From the IMG/VR virus record IMGVR_UViG_2939162341_000002: a stretch of 37,948 nt of DNA. One strand, given 5' to 3'. The translations under genes and the position numbers were made by a program. Every line of letters begins with the position of its first letter. Position 1 is the stretch's first letter. The DNA comes from a virus (lineage: Duplodnaviria; Heunggongvirae; Uroviricota; Caudoviricetes). The notes under the pieces are model-generated. The model made no database searches. It was not told the DNA's origin and saw only the letters and a list, made by a program, of their open reading frames with translations. Shown piece after piece: positions 1-26,409 of this stretch.

Positions 1-19
1 CTATTTGATAAATATTAAA

Positions 20-1315: not shown

Positions 1316-1334
1316 TAGTTAGTGTGGCTTTTAG

Positions 1335-1586: not shown

Positions 1587-1658
1587 CGATTTCTTTATCT
1601 CTTACATCAGACGAGCGCCGGTTGCAGAATACCAGTCACAACCGGCGACAGTTGAACA

Positions 1659-3587
1659 TTAAGAATCAGCCTGACTCGGGATCAGTTTTTGCCAGATAAC
1701 TGAAACGTATTTTGCCTGGTAACGGGCGTCATCAAGTGCATTATGGCGCTCACCTTCGAATGGAATAGCCGTTCTGGCATCGAAGTCTATGGCTTTCCCC
1801 AGCTCAACGATTGTGCGTACATCGCGATCGTTGTAGTAACGCCACGGGCAGGGGATCCCCTGCCGTTCGTATGAACGGCGCAAAATCGTGTTGTCGAAGT
1901 TGGCTCCATTTCCCCAAACCTGAACAAAAAATTCACCGGAGTTTTCGTCGATAAATTCCCGCAATTGTAACAGTGCATCATCTAACGGGATTTCATCGGT
2001 CATAATGGCAGATTGCGATTCGCGTGATTGCTTAAGCCACCATTTAATGGTGTCCCGATCAATGACTCCGCCAGCAGTTTCCAGATCGATAGTCTTACTA
2101 AATTCCGGTCCCATATCTCCGGTTTGCGGATCGAAAAATATTGCACCTATTGAGATGATCGGGGCATCAGGATTTTTTCCCATGGTTTCAAGGTCGATCA
2201 TTAGATGGTCACACGTCCTGCTGGTGGATGTGATTTCGTGATGACCGTTCACCTTAATTGGGTGATCTGCCGTCTCGCCAGTTTCATTATCGCTATTGTG
2301 ATGCTGATTGCCGCCAGTGTTCTCCTTGTGTGGATGTTCAGCGCCTTCCATTTCCTCCGGATCATCTTCCTGAACTTCAACCTGATACTCTTCATCGAAT
2401 GTTTCTTGGTATGTTGCGTCGCCCATCACCGCGCCACAATCAGGGCAGTTGCCGCCGCCGGTCTGACCGCAGGCGGTGCAGGCTTTTTCCACTTCCTGGT
2501 GCGCCACTGGTTCAGGCTGTTTCGTTTCTGGCTCGTTTTGTAACGCATTTGGACTGTTTTGTTCCGCTTTTTGGTAGTTCCGTTCCGATTCATGCTGGTT
2601 CTGGTTCACAGAATCGCGGGTCTGGATCCCCTTAACCCATTTCGGATCATTCGGGTCACTAATCCCTTCAACAAATTCACCACGTGATGCAGCAAGCAAC
2701 TTATCGGCGTCAGGCTGGCTGATATTGGCTGCCTGCATAATTTTGTTTACTTCGTCAGCGGTAACTTTTATCGGCTCTGGTTGTTCTGAATCTTCAGCGG
2801 TATCTACATTTTGCGGTAAGCCCGTGTATGTGCCATTTTTTCGGGCAAAATATTCTTCTTTTGTGATTTCAGTGGCGCCAGCAGCCAGTGCCTTATCCAG
2901 ACCAGAAAGTTTGTTTGCGCGACCGTATTTTTCTCCGTCCTTATCTGCGAAGAGGAAATAGAACGGCCCCTCACGCTCTACAGATGGTTCAGCTTCCGGC
3001 GCGGTTTCATTTTTTGGGATATCAGATACCTCAGTTTCCACTGCATCAGTTTGTGTTTCTGATGACTGGAGAACATCAACAGTGCCCAGGTCTGTTTCTT
3101 CATTCTCAAACACGCCCTTTGTCGTCAGGTATTCGCAGATATATTTGTTCAGTGCTACGGGATCTTTGTGAATGTCGATCGGACGCTCACGGACAAGGCC
3201 AAAAATAGTTTGGCGGTCGTAGCGAAGGGCATCAGGCTGTTTGCGCATTGATGCCGAGATACGCTTCCAGTCTTCGCGGTCGTTGTCGATAACTTCTTTT
3301 TTTGCCCAGCGATGGATGCTGCCGTCAATGTTTCCGGCATCCACATCACCAGGCCAGAGAGCGTAGGCCAGTTCGTCATCCAGTGTTTTCCATGTCTGCT
3401 TGTATTCGCGATGAATGGCAGCAATGACCGGGCTGATTTTTCCTGTTGAATTTTCAGTGTACTGTTGATTGGCTCTGGCGCGGGCGAGATCAACAACAGA
3501 CGTGTATTTTCCGGTTTCCTTGCGTTCACCTTCGCGACGTTTTTTCCAGATGCGCATCTCTGCCTGAATTTCGGGTGATGCTGCCAA
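1659..3587 (-). CDS. Prophage exonuclease with C-terminal DnaQ-like 3'-5' exonuclease (DEDDh) domain; 5' end runs into IS1, so likely truncated or promoter-less
   Basis: C-terminal region has DEDDh-type motifs (MIDLETMG, NGANFDNTILRR, HNALDDARYQAKY); central CxxC...CxxC zinc-ribbon (CTACGQTGGGNCPDCGAV). The ORF-finder start (TTG) lies inside the IS1 terminal repeat, so the native 5' end is lost or displaced. Confidence 0.75.
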   Translation of the reverse strand: MAASPEIQAEMRIWKKRREGERKETGKYTSVVDLARARANQQYTENSTGKISPVIAAIHREYKQTWKTLDDELAYALWPGDVDAGNIDGSIHRWAKKEVIDNDREDWKRISASMRKQPDALRYDRQTIFGLVRERPIDIHKDPVALNKYICEYLTTKGVFENEETDLGTVDVLQSSETQTDAVETEVSDIPKNETAPEAEPSVEREGPFYFLFADKDGEKYGRANKLSGLDKALAAGATEITKEEYFARKNGTYTGLPQNVDTAEDSEQPEPIKVTADEVNKIMQAANISQPDADKLLAASRGEFVEGISDPNDPKWVKGIQTRDSVNQNQHESERNYQKAEQNSPNALQNEPETKQPEPVAHQEVEKACTACGQTGGGNCPDCGAVMGDATYQETFDEEYQVEVQEDDPEEMEGAEHPHKENTGGNQHHNSDNETGETADHPIKVNGHHEITSTSRTCDHLMIDLETMGKNPDAPIISIGAIFFDPQTGDMGPEFSKTIDLETAGGVIDRDTIKWWLKQSRESQSAIMTDEIPLDDALLQLREFIDENSGEFFVQVWGNGANFDNTILRRSYERQGIPCPWRYYNDRDVRTIVELGKAIDFDARTAIPFEGERHNALDDARYQAKYVSVIWQKLIPSQADS

Positions 3588-3628
3588 CTTACTGATTTAG
3601 TGTATGATGGTGTTTTTGAGGTGCTCCA

Positions 3629-3904
3629 GTGGCTTCTGTTTCTATCAGCTGTCCCTCCTGTTCAGCTACTGACGGGGTGGTGCGTAACGGCAAAAGCACC
3701 GCCGGACATCAGCGCTATCTCTGCTCTCACTGCCGTAAAACATGGCAACTGCAGTTCACTTACACCGCTTCTCAACCCGGTACGCACCAGAAAATCATTG
3801 ATATGGCCATGAATGGCGTTGGATGCCGGGCAACTGCCCGCATTATGGGCGTTGGCCTCAACACGATTTTACGTCACTTAAAAAACTCAGGCCGCAGTCG
3901 GTAA
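3629..3904 (+). CDS. insA: IS1 InsA
   Basis: 91-aa ORF with Cys-rich N-terminus ([28 protein letters not shown]), recognised as IS1 InsA from memory. Confidence 0.93.
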
Positions 3905-4326
3905 CCTCGCGCATACAACCGGGCAGCGATGTGATTGTCTGCGCTGAAATGGACGAACAGTGGGGCTACGTAGGTGCTAAATCACGTCAGCGCTGGCTGT
4001 TTTACGCGTATGACAGGATACGGAGGACGGTTGTGGCGCACGTCTTCGGTGAACGCACTCTGGCCACACTGGAGCGTCTTATGAGCCTGCTGTCGGCCTT
4101 TGACGTGGTGATATGGATGACGGATGGCTGGCCGCTGTATGAATCCCGCCTGAAGGGAAAGCTGCACGTAATCAGCAAGCGTTACACTCAGCGCATTGAG
4201 CGACATAATCTGAATCTGAGACAACATCTGGCAAGGCTGGGACGGAAGTCACTGTCGTTCTCAAAATCGGTGGAGCTGCATGACAAAGTCATCGGGCATT
4301 ATCTGAACATAAAACACTATCAGTAA
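3823..4326 (+). CDS. insB: IS1 InsB (transposase, made as InsAB' by -1 frameshift)
   Basis: 167-aa ORF overlapping the insA 3' end in the -1 frame, characteristic of IS1. Confidence 0.93.
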
Positions 4327-4387
4327 GTTGGAGTCATTACCGAATCGCAACGTAGTTATTATCATATAACAGCTTGTTTCCTGATTT

Positions 4388-4417
4388 AGCCAGCCTCCCC
4401 AAAGGCTGGTTTTTTTC
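4388..4417 (+). terminator. Rho-independent terminator (hairpin plus T7 run)
   Basis: AGCCAGCCT-CCCCAAA-AGGCTGG followed by TTTTTTT, directly right of IS1. Confidence 0.6.
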
Positions 4418-4444
4418 TAATAAGTATCATTTCGGGTGGGGATT

Positions 4445-4969
4445 TTATTGTTTAACCCATAATAGTTCATTGACATTGAATCCCAACTTTTGAGCGGTAC
4501 GCACATAGTCTGCTTTTACATTATCTGGAATAGTTTGGGTCCTTGCCAGAATCCATAGGTATTCTCTGTTCGGACCACTGACAAGAGCATACTTATACTC
4601 ATCATCCAGCTTGATTACATTATAGCCACCATAGAAGGGGCCAAAAAACGAAACTTTCAACGCTGCAGTTTTAGTATCTCCAGTAAAGTATGCTTTACCT
4701 TCGCTCTCGCTCCATTTGTTTTTCGTTGGATCGTATCCACGGTTAAGTACGCGAATCCCTCCGTCGTTCCGTTTTTCATAAGTAGCGCTGACCTGTTCCA
4801 GACCACGTTCGAACCAGTTCTCGAGGCGAGCTATTTCATACCATTTTCCGAGGTAGCGGTTGGCGTCAAAATTTGTAATCGGCTGCACACCTTTAGGTGG
4901 TGTCGGGGCCTTACATGCTATAAGAGTGAAAGAGAGTGCAATGCCAGTCAACACAGGCCATAACTTCAT
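4445..4969 (-). CDS. Outer-membrane lipoprotein of the bacterial lipocalin family (Blc-like paralog)
   Basis: 174 aa; lipoprotein signal peptide with lipobox (LIAC); lipocalin motifs shared with E. coli Blc as recalled (FDANRYLGKWYEIAR, GKAYFTG, ALKVSFFGPFYGGYNVI). Confidence 0.85.
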   Translation of the reverse strand: MKLWPVLTGIALSFTLIACKAPTPPKGVQPITNFDANRYLGKWYEIARLENWFERGLEQVSATYEKRNDGGIRVLNRGYDPTKNKWSESEGKAYFTGDTKTAALKVSFFGPFYGGYNVIKLDDEYKYALVSGPNREYLWILARTQTIPDNVKADYVRTAQKLGFNVNELLWVKQ

Positions 4970-5161
4970 AATAAATCCTGTACTTTTGATAGTTGAGAGT
5001 AAGTATGAAAGATAGATGAGTACGACCGATCACTTAAAGAACTTTCCTACTATATTAGGAATAGTCAATAACAGAAAAATTGTCAGTGATGAAGCCAGAA
5101 AGGCAATTTAGTCCGTGCACTACAAAGTTTATGTGTTAATGAATTAGTCAAGGGGGAGGAA

Positions 5162-6121
5162 ATGATAAAAAAACCTGTGATTGGGATCAGCGGTTGTTTG
5201 GGCGGTTCTGCTGTTCGTTTTGATGGTGGTCACAAAAGAGATGACTTTTTAATGGACAAATTAGTGGAATGGGTAACATTCAGACCAGTATGTCCGGAAA
5301 TGGCTATAGGGCTGCCAGTTCCGCGTCCTGCTCTACGACTTGTGCGCTCGAAGCAAGGAAATATACGGATGTGTTTCAGCCACGACCAGAATGAGGATGT
5401 GACAGAGAGAATGACAGAGTTTAGTCGTTCTTATATGGACAAATTAAAGGATGTATCGGGGTTTGTGGTTTGTGCTAAATCTCCCAGCTGTGGCATGGAG
5501 CGCGTGCGTGTCTATGGTGAAAATGGTAATCGAGGTCGTAAAGATGGAGTGGGACTATTTACGAGCACTTTGATGGAAAAGTTTTCCTGGCTACCGGTTG
5601 AAGAGGATGGGCGATTACATGATCCAGTGCTTCGTGAGAATTTTATTGAAAGAGTTTTTGCTTTGCATGAGCTCAATCACCTTTACAAGGAGAAATTATC
5701 AAGAAGAGAGTTATTAGCTTTTCATAGTCGTTATAAGCTTCAGTTGTTGGCGCATAGCCAGGCAGGCTATAAAGATATGGGACCATTTGTGGCTGCAATA
5801 CACGAGTGGGCGGACCTTGAATCATACTTTGAGGTGTATCGTGATAATCTGATGGCGATTCTCAGAAAACCAGCATCACGTAAAAATCACACGAATGTGC
5901 TGATGCATATACAGGGGTATTTTAGTAATTACTTAAGTACACGCCAGCGTAAAGAGTTGAGCGAGGTTATACTTAACTATCGCTTTGGCACATTGCCTCT
6001 TCTTGCGCCGTTGACTCTGCTGAAGCATTATCTGGGTGAGTATCCTAATGATTACTTGCTTACACAGAATTACTTCGATCCCTATCCGGAAGAACTGGCT
6101 CTAAGACTGATGGTGAATTAA
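5162..6121 (+). CDS. DUF523 (TudS-like thiouracil desulfidase fold) fused to DUF1722 (YbgA-like) protein
   Basis: N-terminal Cys motifs typical of DUF523 (GISGCLGG, VCPEMAIGLPVPRP, KSPSCG); C-terminal half resembles YbgA (NHTNVLMHIQGYF, LPLLAPLTLLKHYL); strong RBS AGGGGGAGGA 2 nt upstream of the ATG. Confidence 0.7.
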   Translation: MIKKPVIGISGCLGGSAVRFDGGHKRDDFLMDKLVEWVTFRPVCPEMAIGLPVPRPALRLVRSKQGNIRMCFSHDQNEDVTERMTEFSRSYMDKLKDVSGFVVCAKSPSCGMERVRVYGENGNRGRKDGVGLFTSTLMEKFSWLPVEEDGRLHDPVLRENFIERVFALHELNHLYKEKLSRRELLAFHSRYKLQLLAHSQAGYKDMGPFVAAIHEWADLESYFEVYRDNLMAILRKPASRKNHTNVLMHIQGYFSNYLSTRQRKELSEVILNYRFGTLPLLAPLTLLKHYLGEYPNDYLLTQNYFDPYPEELALRLMVN

Positions 6122-6527
6122 CTGTATGCGATATCATCTGAAAGTGATGAGTTCCTGTATGCAGGATATTTACAATCGTAAAAACTACGCTATGATGCTC
6201 ATAGTGTCAGTTTTTATAAAAATCCTGTTCACGCTAAAGAAAACATTGAGATGCAATTTAATGTTGGTAAACATACCAGCCCCAAACGATTTTATTCAAT
6301 CTGTTTTTATATGAAGATATTTCAAGTGAATATTAAGAGCATATAATATTATTATTGCACGCAGCTATTATAATATAACAGATTAGTTTAATGATTTGTT
6401 TTTTGTGAGTTAAACACATGGTTTTATAGTTGTGATGCAATGAGATTTTCCTTATTGTTGAACTGGCGAATATTGATTTTCCACCTATACTTACCTGGTG
6501 TAACCCCAATGATATCAGGTGGATAAT

Positions 6528-7241
6528 ATGCCATACATATGTTCTATCATTTTGGTGTTGAACTCGTTTGGTGTCCGAATTGGTAAAGAAGATATTTTGT
6601 TTAAAAAAGGAAATGCTGTCCTCATTGAATACAATTTAAAAGATCTTTTTTCGTCAAATACAGATCATCTAATGATCGTAGATGTTGAGGAGAAAACAGT
6701 TAATGATTTCTTTAAAAACTACACACTCTCACCTTTTTCTGTAAGAAGGTTTTATCCGTCATACTTGATAGTAGAATGTGAAGATTTTTCATTGTTAAAG
6801 AACTTGGTTGCATGCTTGAATTGTGATAGCAAAACCGTGGATGTAGTTAGAAATCAAATATCACTTGCATGTCTTGCTGTCTTATCTTCAGAGAAAATAG
6901 TGCAAAGTTTTTTGTTCGGAAGTCTTAATAACTTAGGTTGTAAAGTTAAGGCTATTATTCACTCGGATATCTCAGCGTCATGGAGACTTTGTGATATATC
7001 TTCAAGATTATATATGAGCGAGAGTTTGTTAAAAAGAAAATTAAAAGACGAAGGATTATCGTTTAGTAAATTAATTCTTGAAGAACGAATGATGATGGCG
7101 CAAAGATTATTGATCTACAGTAACCATACTGTCGGCAAGGTGGCGGGAATATGCGGGTATGACAATGCATCATATTTTGTAAGTGTTTTTAGAAGATATT
7201 TTGGTGTGCCTCCGCACCAATATTTATCAAGATTTTCTTAG
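6528..7241 (+). CDS. AraC/XylS-family transcriptional regulator (AppY/PatE-like), AT-rich
   Basis: C-terminal AraC-type HTH region (MAQRLLIYSNHTVGKVAGICGYDNASYFVSVFRRYFGVPPHQY); N-terminus resembles AppY-type prophage regulators; visibly AT-rich. ORF-finder start is GTG at 6519; ATG at 6528 has RBS AGGTGG. Confidence 0.8.
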   Translation: MPYICSIILVLNSFGVRIGKEDILFKKGNAVLIEYNLKDLFSSNTDHLMIVDVEEKTVNDFFKNYTLSPFSVRRFYPSYLIVECEDFSLLKNLVACLNCDSKTVDVVRNQISLACLAVLSSEKIVQSFLFGSLNNLGCKVKAIIHSDISASWRLCDISSRLYMSESLLKRKLKDEGLSFSKLILEERMMMAQRLLIYSNHTVGKVAGICGYDNASYFVSVFRRYFGVPPHQYLSRFS

Positions 7242-7310
7242 AAGATATGATGTGATGGTATTTTATAAAGTTATTTTTTGAAGTGTAAGATTATACGATA
7301 TTTTTAGCTA

Positions 7311-7340
7311 CGCCAGAATAATTGCTGGCGTTTTTCTTTT
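7311..7340 (+). terminator. Rho-independent terminator upstream of holin (tR'-like position)
   Basis: CGCCAG-AATAATTG-CTGGCG hairpin followed by TTTTTCTTTTT, about 90 bp upstream of the holin ATG. Confidence 0.55.
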
Positions 7341-7431
7341 TGAATAGATGTTCGGGCCTTACGCTAATGTAACTTCTTTCCTTCTTCGAACCAAACCGTG
7401 TACACCATCCGTTATCTGCGGAGGTGAGGCT

Positions 7432-7647
7432 ATGAAATCCATGGATAAGTTAACAACGGGCATCGCCTACAGCACCTCTGCAGGCAGTGCTGGCTACTGG
7501 TTTTTACAGTTGCTCGATAAAGTCACACCCTCACAGTGGGCGGCAATAGGTGTATTGGGTAGTCTGGTATTTGGCATGCTGACGTATCTGACAAACCTTT
7601 ATTTCAAGATTAAAGAAGACAGGCGTAAGGCTGCGAGAGGAGAGTAA
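7432..7647 (+). CDS. Class II holin (phage 21 / Stx-phage S type) with dual-start motif
   Basis: 71 aa from ATG at 7432 with RBS GGAGGTGAGG upstream; begins MKSMDK (Met1-Lys-Ser-Met4); two hydrophobic segments and a charged C-terminus ([13 protein letters not shown]). The ORF extends upstream to 7348 but that part lacks an RBS. Confidence 0.85.
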
Positions 7648-7651
7648 GACA

Positions 7652-7870
7652 ATGACTAAAAACTATGAACTGATTGTGAAAGGGACCCGCAATTTTGAGA
7701 ATAAAGTTACGGTAATCTTAACGTTACAGGACAAAGAACGTTTTGCCGGTGAAATTTTTGATCTGAACATCAACCTTGAGCGACTTGAAGGAGCTGGTTT
7801 GGATTATTATGAAGTTACTGCGGTAAAACATGCCAAACAGTTCTTGAGAGATTTGGCTGAAAAAATATAA
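7652..7870 (+). CDS. Hypothetical protein (72 aa) translationally coupled to holin
   Basis: ATG 4 nt after the holin stop; RBS AGAGGAGAG lies inside the holin 3' end; AT-rich; no recognisable domain. Confidence 0.5.
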   Translation: MTKNYELIVKGTRNFENKVTVILTLQDKERFAGEIFDLNINLERLEGAGLDYYEVTAVKHAKQFLRDLAEKI

Positions 7871-7888
7871 AGCGGCATTACTGCCGCT
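7871..7888. terminator. Bidirectional hairpin between convergent genes
   Basis: AGCGGCA-TTAC-TGCCGCT perfect 7-bp stem, A-rich on the left and T-containing on the right, between the stops of the convergent 72-aa and 98-aa genes. Confidence 0.55.
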
Positions 7889-7894
7889 TAGAAA

Positions 7895-8191
7895 TTATTC
7901 AATGTCTGGTAGCTTATCAAAGATTTCGGATACTCTTATATTTGTCATATAAGCAAATTGAGATTCTGCCAGCTCTTTGGGTGATTTTCCCGCTTTTTCT
8001 GAGCCAAAAATTGTTTCTAAAGCCAGCATGTTATATTTGAGAACCTCTTCTCGAGTTTTACCTGATAATTTTGCGGTAACAGCAATATAAAAAGGCAACA
8101 CTTTATCCAGAAGGTCGTTGTGTTTTGTCAGTTGTGGTAATACCACATCAAGTTGCTTACTGATTGGTTTGAATGGATCTATACCGTTCAT
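7895..8191 (-). CDS. Hypothetical protein (98 aa), transcribed opposite to the late operon
   Basis: Clean ATG start with upstream AAGGGA; 128-bp divergent intergenic region shared with the endolysin gene; no recognisable domain; predicted soluble. Confidence 0.5.
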   Translation of the reverse strand: MNGIDPFKPISKQLDVVLPQLTKHNDLLDKVLPFYIAVTAKLSGKTREEVLKYNMLALETIFGSEKAGKSPKELAESQFAYMTNIRVSEIFDKLPDIE

Positions 8192-8318
8192 AGTTACATT
8201 CCCTTATCAGAGGTAATCAGCCATCCCCCCTTTATTACACACGCCAGTATCCACCACTGACGGGCTGAGTGCTTAACATATCTAGAGATTAGAAACTGAT
8301 AAATCCTGATAAATATCC

Positions 8319-9346
<1,028 letters not shown>

Positions 9347-9709
9347 ATTAATATTAAATCGGATTATTTTTAGCGCTGAATGTGAAATTTAAATAAAAAG
9401 GACTCTTCCATGAGTCAAAATCCTTGAAATCTTAAGGGTAAGATAAAAGGTCATTAGACAGAATGACACGTTTTATTAATAAATAAAGCTATTGTTTCAT
9501 TCGTGTGTTTTTCTTTACAAAAGTAATCCTTGCTATGGTTGGTTAATCATGCGTTAATGGTGTTCTGGTTTGTTACAAAATTATCTGAAGCAGTCATTGT
9601 TATAATTTTATTATTTGTACCTCTTGAGATTTCCTTGTTGGTTTTTCTCTCTGATATTTTTTTTCGGACCATTCTGCCCAAGGGCTAACTTCTTCAAAAG
9701 GTAATAATG

Positions 9710-9922
9710 ATGTCTAACAAAATGACTGGTTTAGTGAAATGGTTTAACCCTGAAAAAGGTTTTGGTTTCATCACGCCGAAAGATGGTAGCAAAGATGTGT
9801 TTGTCCATTTCTCAGCTATTCAGAGCAACGATTTCAAAACGTTAACTGAGAATCAGGAAGTCGAATTTGGTATTGAGAACGGACCTAAAGGCCCCGCGGC
9901 TGTTCATGTTGTGGCACTTTGA
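9710..9922 (+). CDS. cspI: Cold-shock protein, CspA family (CspI-like)
   Basis: 70 aa; [38 protein letters not shown] matches CspA-family RNP motifs; roughly 360 bp upstream non-coding leader as in cold-shock genes. Confidence 0.9.
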
Positions 9923-10121
9923 GGTAGAAAATATTACAAACCATATTCACTTTAGATGCCCGTGTTGCCATGGTTCTCAGTATAGAACATCATCTTTTGA
10001 TGTTTCTGACAGGAATCCTTTCGGGGCAAAATGTATCTTTTGTAAATCAATGATGATTACATTTGATAATATTTCACAATACTTAAATGTTAGCCGTCTG
10101 TCGTTAGATTTAAGAAAGTGA
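9906..10121 (+). CDS. ynfN: Small Cys-rich protein (YnfN-like, Qin-type)
   Basis: Contains [19 protein letters not shown]...CIFCKS; the first in-frame ATG (9906) overlaps the cspI 3' end, so the true start is uncertain. Confidence 0.5.
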
Positions 10122-10127
10122 AAATGA

Positions 10128-10150
10128 AGGCTCCTTCGGGAGCTTTTTTG
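10128..10150 (+). terminator. Rho-independent terminator after the ynfN-like gene
   Basis: AGGCTCC-TTCG-GGAGCTT stem followed by TTTTTT. Confidence 0.6.
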
Positions 10151-10193
10151 CTTAGTGTCTAGTCGATGGATACTCACATATTACGGTAACATT

Positions 10194-10424
10194 ATGAAAA
10201 AAATAATAGTTTTTTTTAACTCTGAACCAGCAATGGTAGTGCCAGTGATGACCGGAGTTAACACCATCATGCGTGAATATCCAAATGGCGAAACAACACA
10301 CCTCACTGTAATGGCTGCAGGGTTTCCATCTCTGACCGGAGATCATAAAGTCATTTATGTAGCAGCGGATCGGCATGTAACTTCAGAAGAAATTCTGGAA
10401 GCAGCAATGAGACTCTTGAATTGA
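10194..10424 (+). CDS. Hypothetical small protein (76 aa from first ATG)
   Basis: ORF with ATG at 10194 (ORF-finder start is GTG at 10155); weak RBS; possibly related to Qin ynfO/ydfO-type genes but not confidently recognised. Confidence 0.4.
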   Translation: MKKIIVFFNSEPAMVVPVMTGVNTIMREYPNGETTHLTVMAAGFPSLTGDHKVIYVAADRHVTSEEILEAAMRLLN

Positions 10425-10596
10425 TTTGATTCTAATGCATTGATAATAAATGATAATCATCTTTATCTGTTTGTGTGAAATTTAGACCGTCGTATGTTGA
10501 TTATTGCGATGTTTCATCTTATCTTTTATACGCTTGCTCCATATAATTGACACTACTGTGTACCAGGAAAGTCATAACAGACTAAAAGAGGAAATG

Positions 10597-10770
10597 ATGA
10601 ACATTGAAGAGTTAAAAACAAAAACAGAAGCAGATATTTCTGAATATATAACAAAAAAAATCATTGAGCTTAAGAAAAAGACCGGGAAAGAAGTTACCAG
10701 TATCCAGTTTACTGCACGGGAAAAAATGACTGGTCTTGAAAGCTATGATATCAAGATTGATTTAATCTAG
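10597..10770 (+). CDS. gnsB: GnsA/GnsB family protein
   Basis: 57 aa (MNIEELKTKTEADISEYITKKIIELKKKTGKEVTSIQFTAREKMTGLESYDIKIDLI) matches GnsA/GnsB as recalled; RBS AAAGAGGAAA upstream; an extra ATG lies at 10594. Confidence 0.85.
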   Translation: MNIEELKTKTEADISEYITKKIIELKKKTGKEVTSIQFTAREKMTGLESYDIKIDLI

Positions 10771-11172
10771 TCTGTTTATAGCATTAGCATCAATTTCTCA
10801 TCAGATGCTATTCAACAATACAAATTACCCATAAACCTCGTTTTTACGGGGTTTTGTTATATTTAAACATTACCGAATAGGTATAAATCTCGATTGTCGA
10901 TGGTATTGGTTGTGTGACAATACCTAGTCTTTTCGGTATGCCTGAAGAGAATACAAACGACAGATTATGTAAGGGAAACGCGCTGAATCTTTCACTCTTT
11001 CATGCTGAGTGATTTGACGTTATATTTTTAGCCGTAAGTGAAGAGCAAACGCATGGAGCGACAAAATGCATAAAGATCAATACACTGATGCCCCCTCCCA
11101 GGAGCAGGTTCGTGTAAAAACTATGCTTAATAGCACCATTTCTGATCCTACCCACGTAATATGGACACAGGC

Positions 11173-12039
11173 CTAAGCGAGGTTCTTGTTTTCAAATTGT
11201 TCCGGACTGAGGCCGCCACACCAACTGTGCCGCCGCCACCGATTGTAATCACATTCGATATAATTAAACACCGTTGCCCGCATTATTTCCCGGCTGATAA
11301 AGTGTTCTCCATGGATACATTCCACTTTCAGCGAATGAAAGAAGCTTTCCACGCAGGCATTATCGTAGCAGCAACCTTTTGCGCTCATACTTCCACGCAG
11401 ATTATGCCGCTTCAGTTGCGCCTGATAATCTGCTGAACAGTACTGGCCTCCACGGTCCGTGTGAACGATAACGTTCCGGGGCCTCTTACGCCGCCACAGC
11501 GCCATCTGCAGGGCATCGCAGGCCAGTTGCGCCGTCATGCGTGGCGACATTGACCAGCCAATAACGGCACGTGACCACAGGTCAATGACCACTGCCAGAT
11601 ACAGCCAGCCTTCATCTGTACGTAAGTACGTGATGTCTCCTGCCCACTTCTGGTTCGGGCCACTGGCGTAAAAATCCTGCTCCAACAGATTTTCTGACAC
11701 AGGCAGGCCGTGTGCGCGGTAGCTGACCGGGCTGAACTTCCGGGAGGCCTTTGCCCTCAGTCCCTGACGGCGCAGGCTTGCCGCCACGGTTTTTACGTTA
11801 AAGGGGTAACCCTGAGCACGCAGTTCATCCGTCAGGCGTGGGGAACCGTAACGCTGTTTTGACCGGGTAAAAGCCGCGAGGACAACGCTGTCGCAGTGTT
11901 GGCGGAACTGCTGACGCGTGCTTATCCTTGTCCGCCGCTGACACCACGTATACCAGCCGCTGCGGGCCACCCGGAGCACGCGGCACATTGCTTTGATGCT
12001 GAACTCAGCCTGATGTTTTTCAATAAAGACATACTTCAT
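11173..12039 (-). CDS. insF: IS3 transposase OrfB (InsF, DDE integrase domain)
   Basis: 288-aa ORF recognised as IS3 InsF; overlaps orfA in the -1 frame as in IS3-family frameshift fusions. Confidence 0.93.
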
Positions 12040-12344
12040 TTCAGGCGCTTCGCGAAGTATGTCGCGGCCTTTTGGAGGATAGCCAGCTCTTCATCCCGTT
12101 CTGCCAGCTGGCGTTTGAGACGTGCAATCTCGGTAGACATCTCCAGTTCACGTTCAGAAGACGTCTGCTGATTTTGCTGTTTACTGCGCCAGTTGTAGAG
12201 TTGTGATTCATACAGGCTGAGTTCACGGGCTGCGGCAGTAACACCGATGCGTTCAGCAAGCTTCAGGGCTTCACTGCGAAATTCAGGCGAATGCTGTTTA
12301 CGGGGTTTTTTACTGGTTGATACTGTTTTTGTCATGTGAGTCAC
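12036..12344 (-). CDS. insE: IS3 transposase OrfA (InsE, HTH)
   Basis: ~100-aa ORF recognised as IS3 InsE ([32 protein letters not shown]...). Confidence 0.93.
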
Positions 12345-12401
12345 CTCTGACTGAGAGTTTACTCACTTAGCCGCGTGTCCACTATTGCTGGGTAAGATCA
12401 A

Positions 12402-12584
12402 AAGGCTGTCGTCCAGGTTCTGGAGACAATTCCGGATGTTCTTGAACGCGATTGCGCCCTGACTCCTCAGGCCGTTGGCGTTGTACAGCAGGCCATTGAT
12501 GACCTGCGATACACTCTTCAGGAAAAATCCTACGAGGCTTGTGCTGCTGAATTAATTCCTGATGAGGAAGGAGAGAGTCTCTAG
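12402..12584 (+). pseudogene. 3' remnant of the terminase small subunit gene, truncated by IS3
   Basis: Open frame starts exactly at the IS3 boundary with no start codon and ends in a TAATG stop/start overlap with the large terminase ATG, the usual small/large terminase coupling. Confidence 0.6.
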
Positions 12585-14692: not shown

Positions 14693-14901
14693 ACCAGAAT
14701 GATATCGAAGCCATGATTCAGCGTTATACGGAAGCTGAAATGGCGGTGCTGGACGGAAAATCCGTCACCTTTAATGGTCAGCAGATGACCATGGAAAACT
14801 TATCTGAGATCCGGCAGGGACGGCAGGAGTGGGAGCGCCGCCTTGCGGCTCTGATTACACGACGACGGGGGCATCCCGGGTATCGGCTGGCGAGGTTCTG
14901 A
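14689..14901 (+). CDS. Head-tail joining protein (lambda gpW-like)
   Basis: ~70 aa; ATGA overlap with the terminase stop; RBS GGAGGA; position between terminase and portal as in lambda. Confidence 0.7.
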   Translation: MNQNDIEAMIQRYTEAEMAVLDGKSVTFNGQQMTMENLSEIRQGRQEWERRLAALITRRRGHPGYRLARF

Positions 14902-16409
14902 TGGCAATTCTTGATGATGTGATTGGCGTTTTTTCACCAGGATGGAAAGCGGCAAGGCTGCGTTCCCGTGCGGTGATCCAGGCTTATGAGGCCGTAAAAA
15001 CGACGCGGACACACAAAGCCCGACGGGAGAACCGAACTGCCGACCAGTTAAGCCAGTACGGGGCCGTGTCGTTACGTGAGCAGGCCCGTTACCTTGATAA
15101 CAACCACGATCTGGTTATTGGTGTATTTGACAAGCTGGAAGAACGGGTGGTGGGGAAAAACGGGATTATTGTCGAGCCACATCCGGTATTACGCAATGGG
15201 GCCATTGCCCGTGACCTGGCTGCGGAGATTCGCACCCGATGGAGTGAATGGTCTGTCAGCCCGGAAGTCACCGGGCAGTTTACCCGTCCGATGCTGGAAC
15301 GTCTGATGCTTCGTACCTGGCTGCGCGATGGTGAGGTGTTTGCCCAGATGGTTTCCGGGCGCATAAACAGCCTGACGCCTTCTGCCGGTGTTCATTTCTG
15401 GCTGGAGGCGCTCGAGCCGGACTTTATTCCCATGACCAGTGATGAGAGCAACAGGCTGAATCAGGGCGTGTTTGTTGATGACTGGGGGCGTCCCGAAAAA
15501 TATCTGGTGTATAAAAGCCGTCCCGTATCCGGACGGCAGATGGAAACCAAAGAAGTGGATGCAGAGCGAATGCTGCATCTTAAATTTGTTCGCCGTCTGC
15601 ACCAGATGCGCGGGACGTCTTTATTGTCCGGTGTGCTGATCCGCCTCAGTGCCCTGAAAGAGTATGAAGATTCTGAGCTGACTGCAGCAAGGATCGCCGC
15701 TGCTCTGGGGATGTACATCCGGAAAGGCGACGGGCAGAGCTATGAAGCGGATGGTAATGGCAGCAAGGATAAGGAACGCGAGCTTACCATTCAGCCAGGC
15801 ATTATTTACGATGATCTGAAACCCGGCGAAGAAATCGGAATGGTGAAGTCGGATCGCCCAAATCCTAACCTTGAAACTTTTCGTAATGGTCAGTTGCGTG
15901 CCGTGGCGGCGGGCAGTCGTCTGAGTTTTTCCAGTACAGCGCGCAACTATAACGGCACTTACAGCGCCCAGCGTCAGGAGCTGGTTGAATCCACTGATGG
16001 CTACCTGATCCTGCAGGACTGGTTTATTGGTGCCGTCACCCGTCCGATGTATCGTGCCTGGCTGAAACAGGCTGTGGCATCCGGTGTTATCAGGCTACCC
16101 CGCGATCTTGACCTTTCTTCACTGTATACCGCGGTGTATTCCGGACCGGTGATGCCGTGGATTGACCCTGTTAAGGAGGCTGAGGCCTGGAAAATCCAGA
16201 TTCGTGGTGGAGCGGCGACAGAATCAGACTGGGTACGTGCTGGTGGTCGTAATCCGGATGATGTCAAACGTCGGCGCAAGGCCGAAATTGATGAAAACCG
16301 CAAGCTGGATCTGGTATTTGATACCGATCCGGCCAGTGATAAAGGAGGCAGCAGTGCCGCAACGAAACGACAGGAGCCGCAGCACACCGACGACCAGTCC
16401 GAAGAATAA
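14901..16409 (+). CDS. Portal protein (lambda B family)
   Basis: 502 aa from ATG at 14901 (TGATG overlap with the W stop); acidic C-terminus; gene order terminase-W-portal-protease. Confidence 0.85.
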   Translation: MAILDDVIGVFSPGWKAARLRSRAVIQAYEAVKTTRTHKARRENRTADQLSQYGAVSLREQARYLDNNHDLVIGVFDKLEERVVGKNGIIVEPHPVLRNGAIARDLAAEIRTRWSEWSVSPEVTGQFTRPMLERLMLRTWLRDGEVFAQMVSGRINSLTPSAGVHFWLEALEPDFIPMTSDESNRLNQGVFVDDWGRPEKYLVYKSRPVSGRQMETKEVDAERMLHLKFVRRLHQMRGTSLLSGVLIRLSALKEYEDSELTAARIAAALGMYIRKGDGQSYEADGNGSKDKERELTIQPGIIYDDLKPGEEIGMVKSDRPNPNLETFRNGQLRAVAAGSRLSFSSTARNYNGTYSAQRQELVESTDGYLILQDWFIGAVTRPMYRAWLKQAVASGVIRLPRDLDLSSLYTAVYSGPVMPWIDPVKEAEAWKIQIRGGAATESDWVRAGGRNPDDVKRRRKAEIDENRKLDLVFDTDPASDKGGSSAATKRQEPQHTDDQSEE

Positions 16410-16422
16410 TTCCTGGTTCAGG

Positions 16423-18282
16423 ATGCAGGCTGGTCACCAGAGTGACGCGGATATTTATATTTATGACGAGATTGGTTTCTGGGGTGTTACAGCGAAGCAG
16501 TTTATCAGTGATCTGAATGCACTGGGCGATATCACCCACATTAATCTCCATATTAATTCACCGGGTGGCGATGTCTTTGAAGGCATCGCCATTTTTAATG
16601 CGCTGAAAACACATGGTGCGTCCATTACCGTTTATGTCGACGGTGTGGCGGCGTCAATGGCGTCGGTCATTGCGATGGTGGGAAACCCGGTCATTATGCC
16701 GGAAAACACCTTCATGATGATTCATAAACCATTTGGCTTTACGGGCGGTGATGCGGAGGACATGCGCACCTATGCCGACCTGCTCGATAAAGTTGAGGCG
16801 GTTCTGTTACCCGCTTATGCACAGAAAACCGGGAAAACCACCGATGAAATTGCTGCCATGCTGGCGGATGAGACCTGGATGTCCGGTGCCGAATGTCTGG
16901 CACATGGATTTGCTGATCAGGTGACACCAGCCGTTAAGGCAATGGCATGTATTCAGTCAAAACGTACAGAGGAATTTAAAAAGATGCCGGAATCCATTCG
17001 AAATATGATTACTCCGCCACGCAACAGTGCTCCACGCGTACAGGATGATGGACCTGCAGCCTCCCGGACGCCAGTGCAGGCAGCAGCACCCGTGGTGGAT
17101 GAAAACAGCATCCGTGCGCAGGTCCTGGCAGAGCAAAAAGCGCGTGTAAACGGTATTAATGATCTGTTTGCCATGTTTGGCGGGCGTTATCAGTCGTTGC
17201 AGGCTCAGTGTCTTGCCGATCCTGAATGTTCGCTGGAGCAGGCCCGCGAAAAGCTGTTGAACGAGATGGGGCGCGAGTCCACGCCATCCAATAAAAATAC
17301 CCCGGCTCATATTTATGCCGGTAACGGTAATTTTGTGGGGGACGGGATCCGCCAGGCGCTGATGGCGCGTGCCGGATTTGAAAAAACCGAACGTGATAAT
17401 GTCTACAACGGGATGACCCTGCGTGAATATGCCCGTATGTCACTGACTGAACGGGGTATTGGGGTTTCCAGTTATAACCCGATGCAGATGGTCGGTGCGG
17501 CGTTCACACACAGTACGTCTGACTTCGGTAATATTCTGCTGGATGTTGCGAACAAAGCCATTCTGCAGGGCTGGGAAGATGCCCCTGAAACCTATGAACA
17601 GTGGACGCGGAAAGGTCAGTTGTCTGATTTTAAAATTGCCCATCGTGTGGGTATGGGGGGCTTCAGTGCTCTGCGTCAGGTGCGTGAAGGGGCGGAATAT
17701 AAATACGTCACCACCGGAGATAAACAGGCCACTATTGCACTAGCGACCTATGGCGAGCTGTTCAGTATCACCCGTCAGGCCATTATCAATGATGATCTGA
17801 ATATGCTGACCGATGTCCCGATGAAACTGGGCCGTGCGGCGAAATCCACTATTGCCGATCTGGTTTATGCCATTCTGACGTCTAACCCGAAAATCTCCAC
17901 AGATAATGTAAGTCTGTTCGATAAAGCGAAACATGCAAACGTACTGGAGAGCGCTGCAATGGACGTGGCATCGCTGGATAAAGCCCGCCAGTTGATGCGC
18001 GTTCAGAAAGAGGGGGAGCGTCATCTGAATATTCGTCCTGCGTTCGTACTGGTACCGACGGCGATGGAGTCTGTTGCTAACCAGGTCATTCGCTCCTCAA
18101 GTGTCAAGGGGGCTGACATTAACGCCGGTATTATTAACCCGGTGAAAGATTTTGCGACCGTTATTGCAGAGCCTCGTCTTGATGATAACAGCCAGACCAC
18201 CTTCTACCTGGCTGCGTCAAAAGGCTCCGATACGATTGAAGTGGCTTATCTCAACGGTGTGGATACGCCATATATTGATTAG
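16423..18282 (+). CDS. Fused prohead protease (ClpP/S14-like) and major capsid protein
   Basis: 620 aa from ATG at 16423; N-terminal ClpP-like region (IYIYDEIGFWGV...NSPGGDVFEGIAIFNALKTHG...MASVIAMVG); long C-terminal capsid-like domain. Ends at a TAG followed by 32 in-frame codons. Confidence 0.8.
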   Translation: MQAGHQSDADIYIYDEIGFWGVTAKQFISDLNALGDITHINLHINSPGGDVFEGIAIFNALKTHGASITVYVDGVAASMASVIAMVGNPVIMPENTFMMIHKPFGFTGGDAEDMRTYADLLDKVEAVLLPAYAQKTGKTTDEIAAMLADETWMSGAECLAHGFADQVTPAVKAMACIQSKRTEEFKKMPESIRNMITPPRNSAPRVQDDGPAASRTPVQAAAPVVDENSIRAQVLAEQKARVNGINDLFAMFGGRYQSLQAQCLADPECSLEQAREKLLNEMGRESTPSNKNTPAHIYAGNGNFVGDGIRQALMARAGFEKTERDNVYNGMTLREYARMSLTERGIGVSSYNPMQMVGAAFTHSTSDFGNILLDVANKAILQGWEDAPETYEQWTRKGQLSDFKIAHRVGMGGFSALRQVREGAEYKYVTTGDKQATIALATYGELFSITRQAIINDDLNMLTDVPMKLGRAAKSTIADLVYAILTSNPKISTDNVSLFDKAKHANVLESAAMDVASLDKARQLMRVQKEGERHLNIRPAFVLVPTAMESVANQVIRSSSVKGADINAGIINPVKDFATVIAEPRLDDNSQTTFYLAASKGSDTIEVAYLNGVDTPYID

Positions 18283-18467
18283 ATGGAGGGCTTCAGTGTG
18301 GATGGCGTGACAACGAAAGTGCGTATTGACGCCGGTGTCGCGCCAGTTGATCACCGCGGTCTGGTGAAATGTACGGCGTAAACGTCGCAGACAACAACTC
18401 TGATGGCCCGTAAGGGCTTTTTTTGTACCTGAAATCAGCCCCTGAACGGGGCTGTGCGGAGACAGTT

Positions 18468-18791
18468 ATGGCAAAGAATTTTGTAGAAGAAGGAAAAACG
18501 GTGGCGATTGTTGCCAGTGCAGCCATCAGCAGCGGAGATCTGGTGCAGGTGGGCGATGTTTTTGCGGTGGCGCTGACCGATATTCCACAGGGTGAAACAG
18601 GCGACGGCATGACCGAAGGTGTGTTTATGCTGCCTAAGCTGAAAACGGATGACATGAAAACGGGTAAGAAGGTTTATCTGAAGTCCGGAAAAGTTCAGCT
18701 GACTAACAGCGGCTCTGAGCCGCTGGTCGGGGTTGTCTGGGCAGATGCTGGAACCAGTGCAGAAGAAGTGCCGGTAAAACTCAATGTCTGA
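18468..18791 (+). CDS. Small head-associated protein (DUF2190-like, possible decoration protein)
   Basis: 107 aa from ATG at 18468 with GGAG RBS; immediately downstream of the capsid gene; family assignment from memory, low certainty. Confidence 0.55.
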   Translation: MAKNFVEEGKTVAIVASAAISSGDLVQVGDVFAVALTDIPQGETGDGMTEGVFMLPKLKTDDMKTGKKVYLKSGKVQLTNSGSEPLVGVVWADAGTSAEEVPVKLNV

Positions 18792-19059
18792 TCCCTTTTC
18801 CCGGCTGGCTGCGCGTATGGATGCTATCACGGTCAGAAAGATGGGAAAGACAGCCTCGATTAATGATGTCGATATGACTGTGATCCCGGGAGAAACACTG
18901 GCAGAACTGAATGCTCTGTCCGGACCTGCGGTCTCTCTGGTGGTGTTTTCTTCGGGATACCGCCCACGGCGCGGGGATCGCGTTGTTTATGACGGACAAC
19001 AATGGACGGTCACACGGCATGAACGCTTTAACGGTAAGCCAATGATCTTTATTGAGTAA
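18784..19059 (+). CDS. Head-tail connector protein (lambda gpFII-like)
   Basis: 91 aa; ATG overlaps the preceding stop; position and size consistent with FII. Confidence 0.6.
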   Translation: MSDPFSRLAARMDAITVRKMGKTASINDVDMTVIPGETLAELNALSGPAVSLVVFSSGYRPRRGDRVVYDGQQWTVTRHERFNGKPMIFIE

Positions 19060-21248: not shown

Positions 21249-21535
21249 CGCGGGAAATGCAGTTTGTCATGCGGCTTGCCCGGGAGTTCCGGCGGGCAGA
21301 CTGGCGGCGGATGCTGTCGGAAATGTCGGCCACTGAGCTTGGTGAGTGGGGCGATTATTTCCGGATGCAGAGCTTCAGTGATGTGTGGATGGATGCGCAG
21401 TTTGCCTCGCTGAAGGCATTGATCGTGAGAATGGTGTCCGGCAGCAGTGATGCTGCGGTGGCTGATTTCAGCCTTTTACCGGAAGAGAACGGGATACCGG
21501 AGCGAACGGACGAAGAACTGATGCATCTTGGGTAA
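20859..21535 (+). CDS. Tail assembly chaperone G-T fusion, made by a programmed -1 frameshift near the end of G
   Basis: The T frame (ORF 21257..21535) is -1 relative to G and is open from 21224; only 21224..21245 allows the shift; candidate site G GAA AAG at 21236..21242. Confidence 0.6.
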
Positions 21536-25660: not shown

Positions 25661-26409
25661 ATCCCATGACAGAGACAGAATCAGCGATTCTGGCGCACGC
25701 CCGGCGATGTGCGCCAGCGGAGTCGTGCGGCTTCGTGGTGAGAACGCCGGAGGGGGAAAGATATTTTCCCTGCGTGAATATCTCCGGTGAGCCGGAGGAT
25801 TATTTCCGGATGGCTCCGGAGGACTGGCTGCAGGCAGAAATGCAGGGTGAGATTGTGGCGCTGGTCCACAGCCACCCCGGTGGTCTGCCCTGGCTGAGTG
25901 AGGCCGACCGGCGGCTGCAGGTGCAGAGTGATTTGCCGTGGTGACTGGTTTGCCGGGGGGCGATTCACAAGTTCCGCTGTGTGCCACATCTTTCCGGGCG
26001 GCGCTTTGAGCACGGGGTGACGGACTGTTACACGCTGTTCCGGGATGCTTACCATCTGGCGGGGATTGAGATGCCGGATTTTCATCGCGAGGATGACTGG
26101 TGGCGTAACGGTCAGAATCTCTATCTGGATAATCTGGAGGCCACAGGGCTGTATCAGGTGCCGTTGTCAGCGGCGCAGCCGGGCGATGTGCTGATGTGCT
26201 GTTTTGGTTCATCGGTGCCGAATCATGCCGCCATTTACTGTGGTGACAGCGAGCTGCTGCACCATATTCCTGAACAACTGAGCAAACGAGAGAGGTACAC
26301 CGACAAATGGCAGCGACGCACACACTCCCTCTGGCGTCACCGGGCATGGCACGCATCTGCCTTTACGGGGATTTACAACGATTTGGCCGCCGCATCGACC
26401 TTCGAGTGA
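25657..26409 (+). pseudogene. Tail tip assembly protein K (MPN/JAMM plus NlpC/P60 domains) interrupted by an in-frame TGA at 25942..25944
   Basis: The two ORF-finder pieces (25657..25944 and 25981..26409) are in the same frame. The upstream piece carries HSHPGG (JAMM); the downstream piece carries the Cys region (DCYTLF). The stop follows a Trp codon (PW*LVCRG), consistent with TGG to TGA. Confidence 0.8.

What the first reader, a model, noticed from the sequence alone, without database searches (positions are those of the whole stretch)
16423..18282. Prohead protease and major capsid protein encoded as one 620-codon gene
A ClpP-like protease domain is fused to the N-terminus of the capsid protein, in contrast to lambda's separate C/Nu3/E arrangement. 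This fused architecture is known in some enterobacterial prophage head modules and implies self-processing during maturation. The head module here is therefore mosaic relative to the lambda-like tail module.
Basis: partly seen in the sequence, partly recalled or inferred. Interest (0 to 1): 0.35.

Follow-up and report, generated by a model that had tools for sequence, protein, structure and literature searches.

The report
Amber-truncated protease–capsid fusion pseudogene
The ORF is a real copy of a well-known phage gene that makes head protease, scaffold and capsid protein as one chain, but here a single C-to-T change has cut off its conserved last 32 residues, in a prophage that was already dead, so the finding is ordinary.

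Summary
It scores 919 bits against the curated family NF045540, [quoted passage not shown] (cutoff 475).

The "620-codon gene" is not the natural gene.
- **Stop codon:** the TAG at 18280-18282 is a CAG→TAG nonsense mutation. The same frame runs on for 32 conserved codons to TAA (18379-18381) and a terminator.
- **How rare it is:** the CAG allele is exact in 1804 of 1827 matching E. coli records. The TAG allele occurs in one, strain L37, whose prophage is the window. PGAP marks that gene as a pseudogene with an internal stop.
- **Start codon:** the real start is probably GTG 16354, which has a strong Shine-Dalgarno sequence. The intact protein is then 675 aa.
- **What is lost:** in a confident AlphaFold model the stop falls inside one core β-strand and removes two more. 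The lost tail holds five nearly invariant residues.

The host element is a decaying prophage at the Qin site. IS3 cuts its small terminase gene, gpK and gpT carry stops, and sister strains carry other private lesions.

The architecture is already known (mEp460, cdtI, Fels-1, Pseudomonas MD8). Interest is low.

The parts
16354..18282 (+). Truncated protease-scaffold-capsid ORF read from its probable true start, GTG 16354 (642 codons plus the premature TAG). It overlaps the end of the portal gene by 56 nt.
   Evidence: PGAP start in L37 and in HUE1; AAGGAGG lies 5 nt upstream; SD plus GTG conserved in CP-1639, and no ATG at 16423 in Fels-1; translation checked.
16423..18282 (+).
   Evidence: The mEp460 annotators used the same ATG.
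16342..16348 (+). Shine-Dalgarno sequence AAGGAGG serving GTG 16354.
16417..16926 (+). ClpP-like (MEROPS S14-type) prohead protease domain, residues 22-191. Ser101 is at 16654-16656, His124 at 16723-16725, Asp188 at 16915-16917.
   Evidence: Pfam CLP_protease 4e-36; NF045542 head maturation protease 216 bits; aligned with solved ClpPs at GxAASM, MIHxP and GFxD; AlphaFold pLDDT mostly 87-98; Foldseek TM about 0.8 and rmsd about 2 Å to ClpP structures; S101 and H124 invariant in 82/82, D188 in 62/82; codons checked.
16927..17100 (+). Low-complexity, variable-length, poorly ordered linker (residues 192-249).
   Evidence: Indel-rich and poorly conserved in A2; pLDDT 48-79.
17101..17274 (+). Three-helix segment (residues 250-307). 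Inferred to be an internal scaffolding (delta-domain-like) region.
   Evidence: Helices 250-273, 280-288 and 294-307 with pLDDT 91-97. NCBIfam names the model 'scaf_prot_MCP1'. Analogy with MD8 gp5. The function is inferred, not tested.
17275..17331 (+). Disordered segment (residues 308-326) between scaffold-like helices and the capsid N-arm. It is the likeliest place for the maturation cleavage.
   Evidence: pLDDT 56-72. The cleavage site is an inference; no experimental data were found.
17332..18279 (+). HK97-fold major capsid domain (Phage_capsid_4, Mu gpT-like), residues 327-642, truncated at its C-terminus.
   Evidence: Pfam PF25209 and PF10124; weak sequence match to solved Mu-GpT-domain capsid proteins 8rkc/8rkx; AlphaFold spine helix 483-510; Foldseek hits to phage major capsid proteins, TM 0.81.
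18280..18282 (+). Premature amber codon (Gln643→stop; C→T at 18280).
   Evidence: The TAG 61-mer is exact in 1 of 1824 E. coli records and the CAG 61-mer in 1804 of 1827. Gln is invariant in 22 close homologues.
18283..18381 (+). Orphaned last 32 codons of the capsid gene plus its natural TAA stop.
   Evidence: In-frame continuation; identical to the mEp460 C-terminus; holds D650, G651, K655, R657 and D659, each conserved in 74-80 of 82 members; forms β-strands 651-664 and 670-673 in the model.
18405..18428 (+). Intrinsic terminator after the natural end of the capsid gene.
   Evidence: Hairpin plus T-run; annotated as a rho-independent terminator in mEp460.
14901..16409 (+). Lambda-family portal gene (upstream neighbour).
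   Evidence: PF05136, 5e-82
18468..18791 (+). Capsid cement/decoration protein (Phage_cement_2, DUF2190), the downstream partner of this type of capsid gene.
   Evidence: PF09956, 9e-21; present in the same position in mEp460, Fels-1 and CP-1639.
11173..12584 (.). IS3 transposase gene (11173..12335, minus strand) and the 3' remnant of the small terminase gene that it truncates (12402..12584, plus strand). This is the older lesion that grounded the prophage.
   Evidence: PGAP annotation of L37; DUF1441 match to profile positions 103-144 of 147 only; the gene is intact (528 nt) in the less decayed relative WCHEC050613.
25666..26409 (+). gpK-like C40 peptidase pseudogene with TGG→TGA at 25942-25944. 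A second internal stop in the same prophage.
   Evidence: The stop allele is shared by 13 E. coli records and the gene is intact in WCHEC050613.

Best explanation
The feature is a pseudogenised copy of the known one-gene head module, ClpP-like prohead protease, internal scaffold and HK97-fold major capsid protein (NCBIfam NF045540). The same gene occurs in mEp460, cdtI, Fels-1 and CP-1639. In intact phages the inferred mechanism is as follows. A 675-aa polyprotein is made. The C-terminal capsid domains assemble the procapsid shell on the lambda-type portal, with protease and scaffold parts facing inward. The Ser101/His124 protease then cuts in the disordered linkers, most likely at residues 308-326, and digests itself and the scaffold. 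This leaves a mature capsid protein of about 350 residues, which expands and is reinforced by the downstream cement protein. In this window a single C→T transition (CAG→TAG, Gln643, base 18280) ends translation 32 residues early. It removes two and a half core β-strands and five near-invariant residues, so a competent capsid protein is not expected. The mutation is private to one strain (E. coli L37). It arose in a Qin-site prophage that was already immobile, because IS3 had truncated the small terminase gene, gpK and gpT carry stops, and tfa, exo and other genes are truncated. It is therefore one step in prophage decay and not a designed short gene. Shown here: the domains, the catalytic residues, the truncation, how rare the allele is, and the decay context. 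Inferred: the assembly and self-cleavage pathway, the cleavage position, and the loss of function.
For: Family membership: NF045540 919 bits against a cutoff of 475, PHROG 133, and Pfam CLP_protease plus Phage_capsid_4. Near-identity (99% or more) to the head gene of plaque-forming phages mEp460, cdtI, Ayreon and Tritos, where the CDS is 652 aa. One-base difference, CAG versus TAG. Allele counts of 1 against 1804. PGAP annotates 'internal stop'. Restoring Q completes the capsid profile match. All 82 diverse fusions (34-52% identical to the query) have 31-37 residues after this position, with D650, G651, K655, R657 and D659 conserved in 74-80 of 82. The AlphaFold model (pLDDT 88.3) places the stop inside strand 640-645 and before strands 651-664 and 670-673. 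The folds are confirmed against solved ClpP structures and against predicted viral capsid structures. There is no tRNA in the window. Decay context. Sister prophages carry an intact MCP gene but other private lesions, namely HUE1 TerL W246* and an ET915 tape-measure frameshift. The window matches the L37 chromosome at 99.995%.
Against: The TAG allele rests on a single genome assembly, which is the window's own source, so a base-calling error cannot be excluded. Loss of function is inferred from conservation and from a predicted structure, and was not measured. No experimental paper on processing of this enterobacterial family was found in the searchable library, so the maturation pathway is argued by analogy with HK97, lambda and MD8.
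Confidence: 0.88

Rival explanations
1. The gene is intact in the living strain, and the T at 18280 is a sequencing or assembly error in the L37 record.
For: Only one of about 1800 records has it. The window and that record are essentially the same sequence, so there is no independent confirmation.
Against: It is a substitution and not a homopolymer indel. The same lineage has well-replicated nonsense lesions, such as the gpK TGA seen in 13 assemblies. Sister strains have their own private lesions, so a real mutation is the expected pattern in a grounded prophage.
Confidence: 0.08
2. The 620-codon ORF is the natural, functional form of the gene, or the amber is read through so that enough full-length capsid protein is made.
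For: The ORF is long and has both domains. Low-level natural UAG read-through exists in E. coli (general knowledge).
Against: All 82 diverse relatives and all close relatives continue 31-37 residues further through highly conserved positions. Functional phages have CAG. No suppressor tRNA is present in the window. The prophage cannot package DNA in any case, because its small terminase gene is cut by IS3.
Confidence: 0.02
3. The amber mutation is not neutral decay but one of several selected knock-outs of late structural genes in this resident prophage, for example to avoid costly or self-harmful expression.
For: Nine copies of the lineage were compared over 22.3 kb of late genes. Of 16 substitutions, 4 are nonsense (TerL W246*, MCP Q643*, gpT E93*, gpK W93*), where 3-5.6% would be expected. 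P(>=4/16) is 0.001-0.010. With the ascertained site removed, P(>=3/15) is 0.009-0.048.
Against: The sample is small and was chosen because it contains a nonsense mutation. The missense:synonymous ratio of 8:4 is close to the neutral expectation of about 3:1. No expression or fitness data are available.
Confidence: 0.1

Closest known systems
mEp460 gp05 / phage cdtI gp05 / Ayreon / Tritos head gene (NCBIfam NF045540, ClpP-like prohead protease/major capsid protein fusion protein; PHROG 133)
   Same: DNA is 99% or more identical over 2008 nt. The neighbours are the same: lambda-family portal upstream, then terminator, cement protein, Gifsy-2-family protein and gpZ downstream.
   Different: Those phages have CAG at codon 620/643 and encode the full 652/675-aa protein. 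The window has TAG and loses the last 32 residues.
Salmonella Fels-1 STM0912.1n and E. coli CP-1639 / Stx-phage 'protease/scaffold protein'
   Same: The fused gene has the same architecture and sits in the same position in the head module. DNA identity is 77-81%.
   Different: They are diverged alleles. They are intact.
Pseudomonas phage MD8 gp5 (protease + scaffold + MCP in one gene; PMC8508860)
   Same: The published description gives the same three-part layout: an N-terminal ClpP-like protease, a middle scaffold-like region and a C-terminal HK97/Mu-gpT-like capsid domain.
   Different: The host is different and the sequence is distant. MD8 gp5 is 693 aa and intact. That description is also bioinformatic only.
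Lambda C / Nu3 / D / E head genes
   Same: They play the same functional roles (protease, scaffold, decoration, capsid) between a lambda-family portal and lambda-like tail genes. In lambda the protease and scaffold are likewise encoded together.
   Different: The lambda protease belongs to the S49 family and gpE to the Phage_cap_E family, and they are separate genes. Neither family matches here, apart from a sub-threshold clan-level SppA hit.
HK97 gp4/gp5 (separate protease; capsid protein with an N-terminal delta domain as built-in scaffold)
   Same: The capsid fold is HK97-type, with a scaffold segment fused N-terminally to the capsid protein and removed by the head protease (inference and established HK97 biology).
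   Different: The HK97 protease is a separate gene of another family. Here the protease is part of the same chain, which implies a 1:1 ratio of protease to capsid unless there is an internal start. No convincing internal start was seen.

Membership tests
NF045540 ClpP-like prohead protease/major capsid protein fusion | Whole-protein HMM score above the curated cutoff | tested here: met
   919.3 bits against a cutoff of 475, even for the truncated product.
NF045540 ClpP-like prohead protease/major capsid protein fusion | N-terminal ClpP/S14-type domain with catalytic Ser and His | tested here: met
   CLP_protease 4e-36. S101 (GVAASMA) and H124 (MIHKP) align with the ClpP catalytic residues and are invariant in 82/82 members. 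The fold matches solved ClpPs at TM about 0.8.
NF045540 ClpP-like prohead protease/major capsid protein fusion | C-terminal HK97-fold capsid domain (Phage_capsid_4 / Mu gpT-like) on the same polypeptide | tested here: met
   PF25209 2.7e-46 and PF10124 3e-8. The model has a spine helix and capsid-like β-core, and matches viral major capsid proteins at TM 0.81.
NF045540 ClpP-like prohead protease/major capsid protein fusion | Complete C-terminus (about 33 conserved residues after the ...TPYIDQ motif) | tested here: not met
   The profile is matched only to position 619 of 652. A TAG stands at codon 643, whereas all 82 relatives carry the tail. By descent it is a member, but as a pseudogene.
NF045540 ClpP-like prohead protease/major capsid protein fusion | Position in the head module, directly after the portal gene and before the cement and head-tail joining genes | tested here: met
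NF045540 ClpP-like prohead protease/major capsid protein fusion | Autoproteolytic release of mature capsid protein during head maturation | not testable with these tools
   Inferred from the conserved catalytic residues and disordered linkers. No experimental report was found.
Lambda-type head genes (gpC S49 protease / Nu3 / gpE) | Peptidase_S49 protease domain and a Phage_cap_E capsid protein, encoded as separate genes | tested here: not met
   No PF01343 or PF03864 hit at E<=1. The only related hit is a sub-threshold SppA-domain match, 22.5 bits against a cutoff of 155. There is a single fused gene.

The most novel reading that the evidence does not exclude
The amber codon may be one of a run of positively selected knock-outs of late structural genes (large terminase, capsid, gpT, gpK) in a grounded Qin-site prophage lineage. 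Four of the 16 substitutions seen among nine copies are nonsense. One could imagine selection against residual expression of capsid or terminase proteins, for example because they are costly or trigger the host's own phage-sensing defences. That cause is pure speculation.
Probability: 0.1. Interest if true: 0.45.

Novelty: already known. Interest (0 to 1): 0.1.

Why it matters
It matters little. The fused protease-scaffold-capsid gene is a curated family that is very widespread. About 39% of complete E. coli genomes hold a DNA match to it (2125 of 5426), and more than 100 of the best 150 50%-identity cluster representatives are full-length fusions. The practical lesson concerns annotation. The 620-codon ORF is a nonsense-truncated pseudogene, its true start is probably 69 nt upstream, and the prophage that carries it is defective. 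No head assembly should therefore be inferred for this locus. The family's 1:1 protease-to-capsid stoichiometry and its maturation cleavage sites appear to be unstudied experimentally in enterobacterial phages. That is a modest open question for the family, but not one raised by this window.

Tried and rejected
1. AlphaFold with 22 close homologues (75-99% identity) gave an unusable model, pLDDT 36. It was replaced by an alignment of 82 diverse members, which gave pLDDT 88.
2. The Foldseek search of the PDB with the whole model returned only ClpP chains in its 50 listed rows. The same happened with the profile search of PDB sequences. The capsid fold was therefore supported through BFVD and a capsid-only sequence search.
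3. A scan for a nested internal start that could give a separate scaffold-capsid product found only weak SD-like motifs, at Met211 and Met536. The idea was not pursued.
4. A suppressor tRNA encoded in the prophage was looked for and none was found.
5. Literature searches for experimental work on this enterobacterial fusion (mEp460, Gifsy-2, ClpP-capsid fusion) found none. They found only the bioinformatic MD8 description and actinophage annotations. One hit, a toxin-antitoxin-chaperone preprint, was irrelevant.
6. Programmed read-through or a conserved in-frame stop was rejected, because the TAG is private to one genome.

Full report
**1. Observation**

The + strand carries an ORF from ATG 16423 to TAG 18280-18282, which is 619 aa plus the stop. 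It begins 14 nt after the stop of a lambda-family portal gene (14901..16409).
- Pfam CLP_protease matches residues 23-168 (E 4e-36), and Phage_capsid_4 matches residues 352-618 (E 2.7e-46). There is also a weaker Mu-like_gpT match.
- PHROG 133 covers the full length.
- NCBIfam NF045540, [quoted passage not shown], scores 919 bits against a curated cutoff of 475.

**2. The stop codon is premature**

All three profile libraries run out about 33 positions before their ends: Pfam at 229/262, NCBIfam at 619/652 and PHROG at 634/668. Reading on in the same frame past the TAG gives MEGFSVDGVTTKVRIDAGVAPVDHRGLVKCTA. A TAA follows at 18379-18381, and then a hairpin with a T-run at 18405-18428.

The plaque-forming phage mEp460 has a 652-aa CDS followed by an annotated terminator at the same place. 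In the 241-nt stretch across the stop, mEp460 differs from the window at one base, CAG instead of TAG. Replacing the stop by Gln extends the capsid-domain match to 261/262 and raises it from 159 to 187 bits.

A 61-nt probe across the site gives clear allele counts.
- The TAG form is exact in one of 1824 matching E. coli records.
- The CAG form is exact in 1804 of 1827.

The single TAG record is strain L37 (NZ_CP034589), where PGAP flags the gene as a pseudogene with an internal stop. The window matches that chromosome segment at 99.995%; the only two differences are single-base indels inside IS3.

**3. The start codon**

PGAP and most database entries start the protein 23 codons upstream, at GTG 16354, which gives 675 aa. 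That GTG has AAGGAGG 5 nt upstream, whereas the ATG at 16423 has no comparable Shine-Dalgarno sequence. Residues just upstream of Met24 (K17, S20, W21, F22, R23) are nearly invariant in close homologues. I therefore take 16354 as the probable start and use 675-aa numbering below, in which the stop is codon 643.

**4. Anatomy**

A first AlphaFold run on 22 close homologues failed, with pLDDT 36. An exhaustive search of 50%-identity cluster representatives found 38,769 relatives at E<=1e-3 and 7,034 at E<=1e-30. More than 100 of the best 150 are full-length fusions of 640-700 aa at 35-50% identity, aligned to about residues 20-672. An alignment of 82 of these gave a model with mean pLDDT 88.3. 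The model divides as follows.

| Residues | Feature |
|---|---|
| 22-191 | ClpP-like α/β domain |
| 192-249 | poorly ordered, indel-rich linker |
| 250-307 | three confident helices |
| 308-326 | disordered segment |
| 327-675 | capsid domain, with a 28-residue spine helix (483-510) and a C-terminal β-sheet (strands 617-621, 628-633, 640-645, 651-664, 670-673) |

Foldseek matches the N-terminal domain to solved ClpPs, with TM about 0.8 on the target and rmsd about 2 Å. It matches the C-terminal domain to predicted phage major capsid proteins, with TM 0.81 and rmsd 3.2 Å over 292 columns, including HK97-family entries. By sequence, the capsid part weakly matches solved Mu-GpT-domain capsid proteins 8rkc/8rkx (E 2e-4).

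The catalytic residues align with those of ClpP: Ser in GVAASMA, His in MIHKP and Asp in GFAD. Ser101 and His124 are invariant in 82/82 members, and Asp188 is present in 62/82.

**5. What the mutation removes**

Codon 643 lies inside strand 640-645. The lost tail contains strands 651-664 and 670-673 (pLDDT about 90 or higher). It also contains five of the family's nearly invariant positions: D650 (79/82), G651 (74/82), K655 (80/82), R657 (74/82) and D659 (78/82). Every one of the 82 diverse members has 31-37 residues after this position, and Gln643 itself is invariant among 22 close homologues. Loss of capsid-forming ability is therefore a strong inference, though it has not been measured. No tRNA gene, and so no suppressor, lies in the window.

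**6. Context: a decaying prophage**

The window is the prophage at the Qin site, between rspB and ydfJ, with essD, rrrQ, rzpQ, cspI, gnsB, pinQ and ydfK. It carries several lesions.
- An IS1 insertion.
- An IS3 insertion that leaves only the last about 60 codons of the small terminase gene.
- A truncated exonuclease gene and a truncated tail-fibre assembly gene.
- A gpK-like gene with TGG→TGA at 25942-25944.

The gpK stop is shared by 13 E. coli records, so it is older than the capsid mutation.

Eight other copies of the lineage were compared with the window over 22.3 kb of late genes (12402-34700). They differ at 16 substitutions and one indel.
- L37 has two private changes: a synonymous T→C at 13849 and the amber at 18280.
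- HUE1 has an intact capsid gene but a private TerL W246*.
- ET915 has a private frameshift in the tape-measure gene.
- YZ22PE244, SEV1, YY76-1, 19-5 and ET915 show IS3-mediated deletion or inversion of the early region.
- WCHEC050613 is a less decayed relative, with intact small terminase, gpK and gpT genes.

This is stepwise decay of a prophage that could no longer package DNA.

**7. Mechanism (inferred for the intact gene)**

A single polyprotein supplies protease, scaffold and shell subunit. The capsid domains assemble on the portal with the N-terminal parts facing inward. The Ser/His protease cuts in the disordered linkers and degrades protease and scaffold. The mature capsid protein of about 350 residues expands and binds the cement protein encoded at 18468..18791 (Phage_cement_2).

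The terminator after the gene fits high expression of the capsid gene relative to downstream genes. No convincing internal start was seen, so the protease-to-capsid ratio is probably 1:1. The same three-part reading has been published for Pseudomonas phage MD8 gp5 (PMC8508860). "Major capsid and protease fusion protein" is also a standard annotation in actinobacteriophages. I found no experimental study of processing for the enterobacterial family.

**8. Mosaicism**

Large terminase (gpA family), portal (lambda family), gpZ, gpU, gpV and the downstream tail genes are lambda-type. The non-lambda block runs from the protease-capsid gene through the cement protein and the Gifsy-2-family protein at 18784..19059. 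The mosaic joint therefore lies inside the head module and not between head and tail.

**9. Verdict**

Novelty is "already known". Interest is low.

One thing seen in passing might deserve a look. Four of the 16 substitutions in this prophage lineage are nonsense, where 3-5.6% would be expected. P is 0.001-0.010, or 0.009-0.048 once the site that drew attention is left out. The sample is small and was not drawn at random.

Noticed in passing
window 12402-34700, compared with L006-L013: Nine copies of this Qin-site prophage lineage differ at 16 substitutions in the late genes. Four are nonsense: TerL W246* in HUE1 at 13330, MCP Q643* in L37 at 18280, and gpT E93* at 21533 and gpK W93* at 25944 in the decayed lineage. 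Eight are missense and four synonymous. Nonsense changes are expected at 3-5.6%, giving P=0.001-0.010 (0.009-0.048 without the ascertained site). This may be chance or selection for knock-outs.
   Followed up: partly
window 25666-26409 (stop at 25942-25944): The gpK-like C40 peptidase gene has an internal TGA (TGG→TGA). The allele is shared by 13 complete E. coli genomes, so it predates the capsid amber mutation.
   Followed up: yes
window 21257-21535: The gpT (tail assembly protein T) ORF ends at a TAA where the less decayed relative WCHEC050613 has GAA and continues for 17 more codons (279 versus 330 nt). This is another nonsense lesion, and PGAP does not flag it.
   Followed up: partly
window 11173-12584: IS3 is inserted into the small terminase gene, leaving only its 3' end (DUF1441 profile positions 103-144). 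The only two differences between the window and the L37 RefSeq record are paired 1-nt indels inside this IS3, at 11749 and 11790.
   Followed up: partly
L007, L008, L010, L012, L013 (sister prophages): Second IS3 copies have caused an inversion of the whole early/lysis region (SEV1, YY76-1, 19-5, ET915) or its deletion (YZ22PE244) relative to the window's arrangement. 39EVA also carries the second IS3, which cuts its integrase gene, but keeps the window's orientation. ET915 also has a 1-nt deletion in a T-run of the tape-measure gene (window 24333).
   Followed up: no
window 1-11000: The early/left part has low G+C (33-46%) and carries host-like cargo and Qin-type genes (lipocalin, YbgA, cspI, ymcF, ynfN, gnsB, essD, rrrQ, rzpQ) together with an IS1. 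In this strain the Qin locus still holds complete-looking head and tail modules.
   Followed up: no
protein hits P0004, P0007, P0036, P0042, P0065, P0066: Some database proteins join this protease-capsid sequence to tape-measure, terminase, gpL, portal or gpJ domains (750-1080 aa). Most are single-contig entries and look like assembly or gene-calling chimeras and not real fusions.
   Followed up: no
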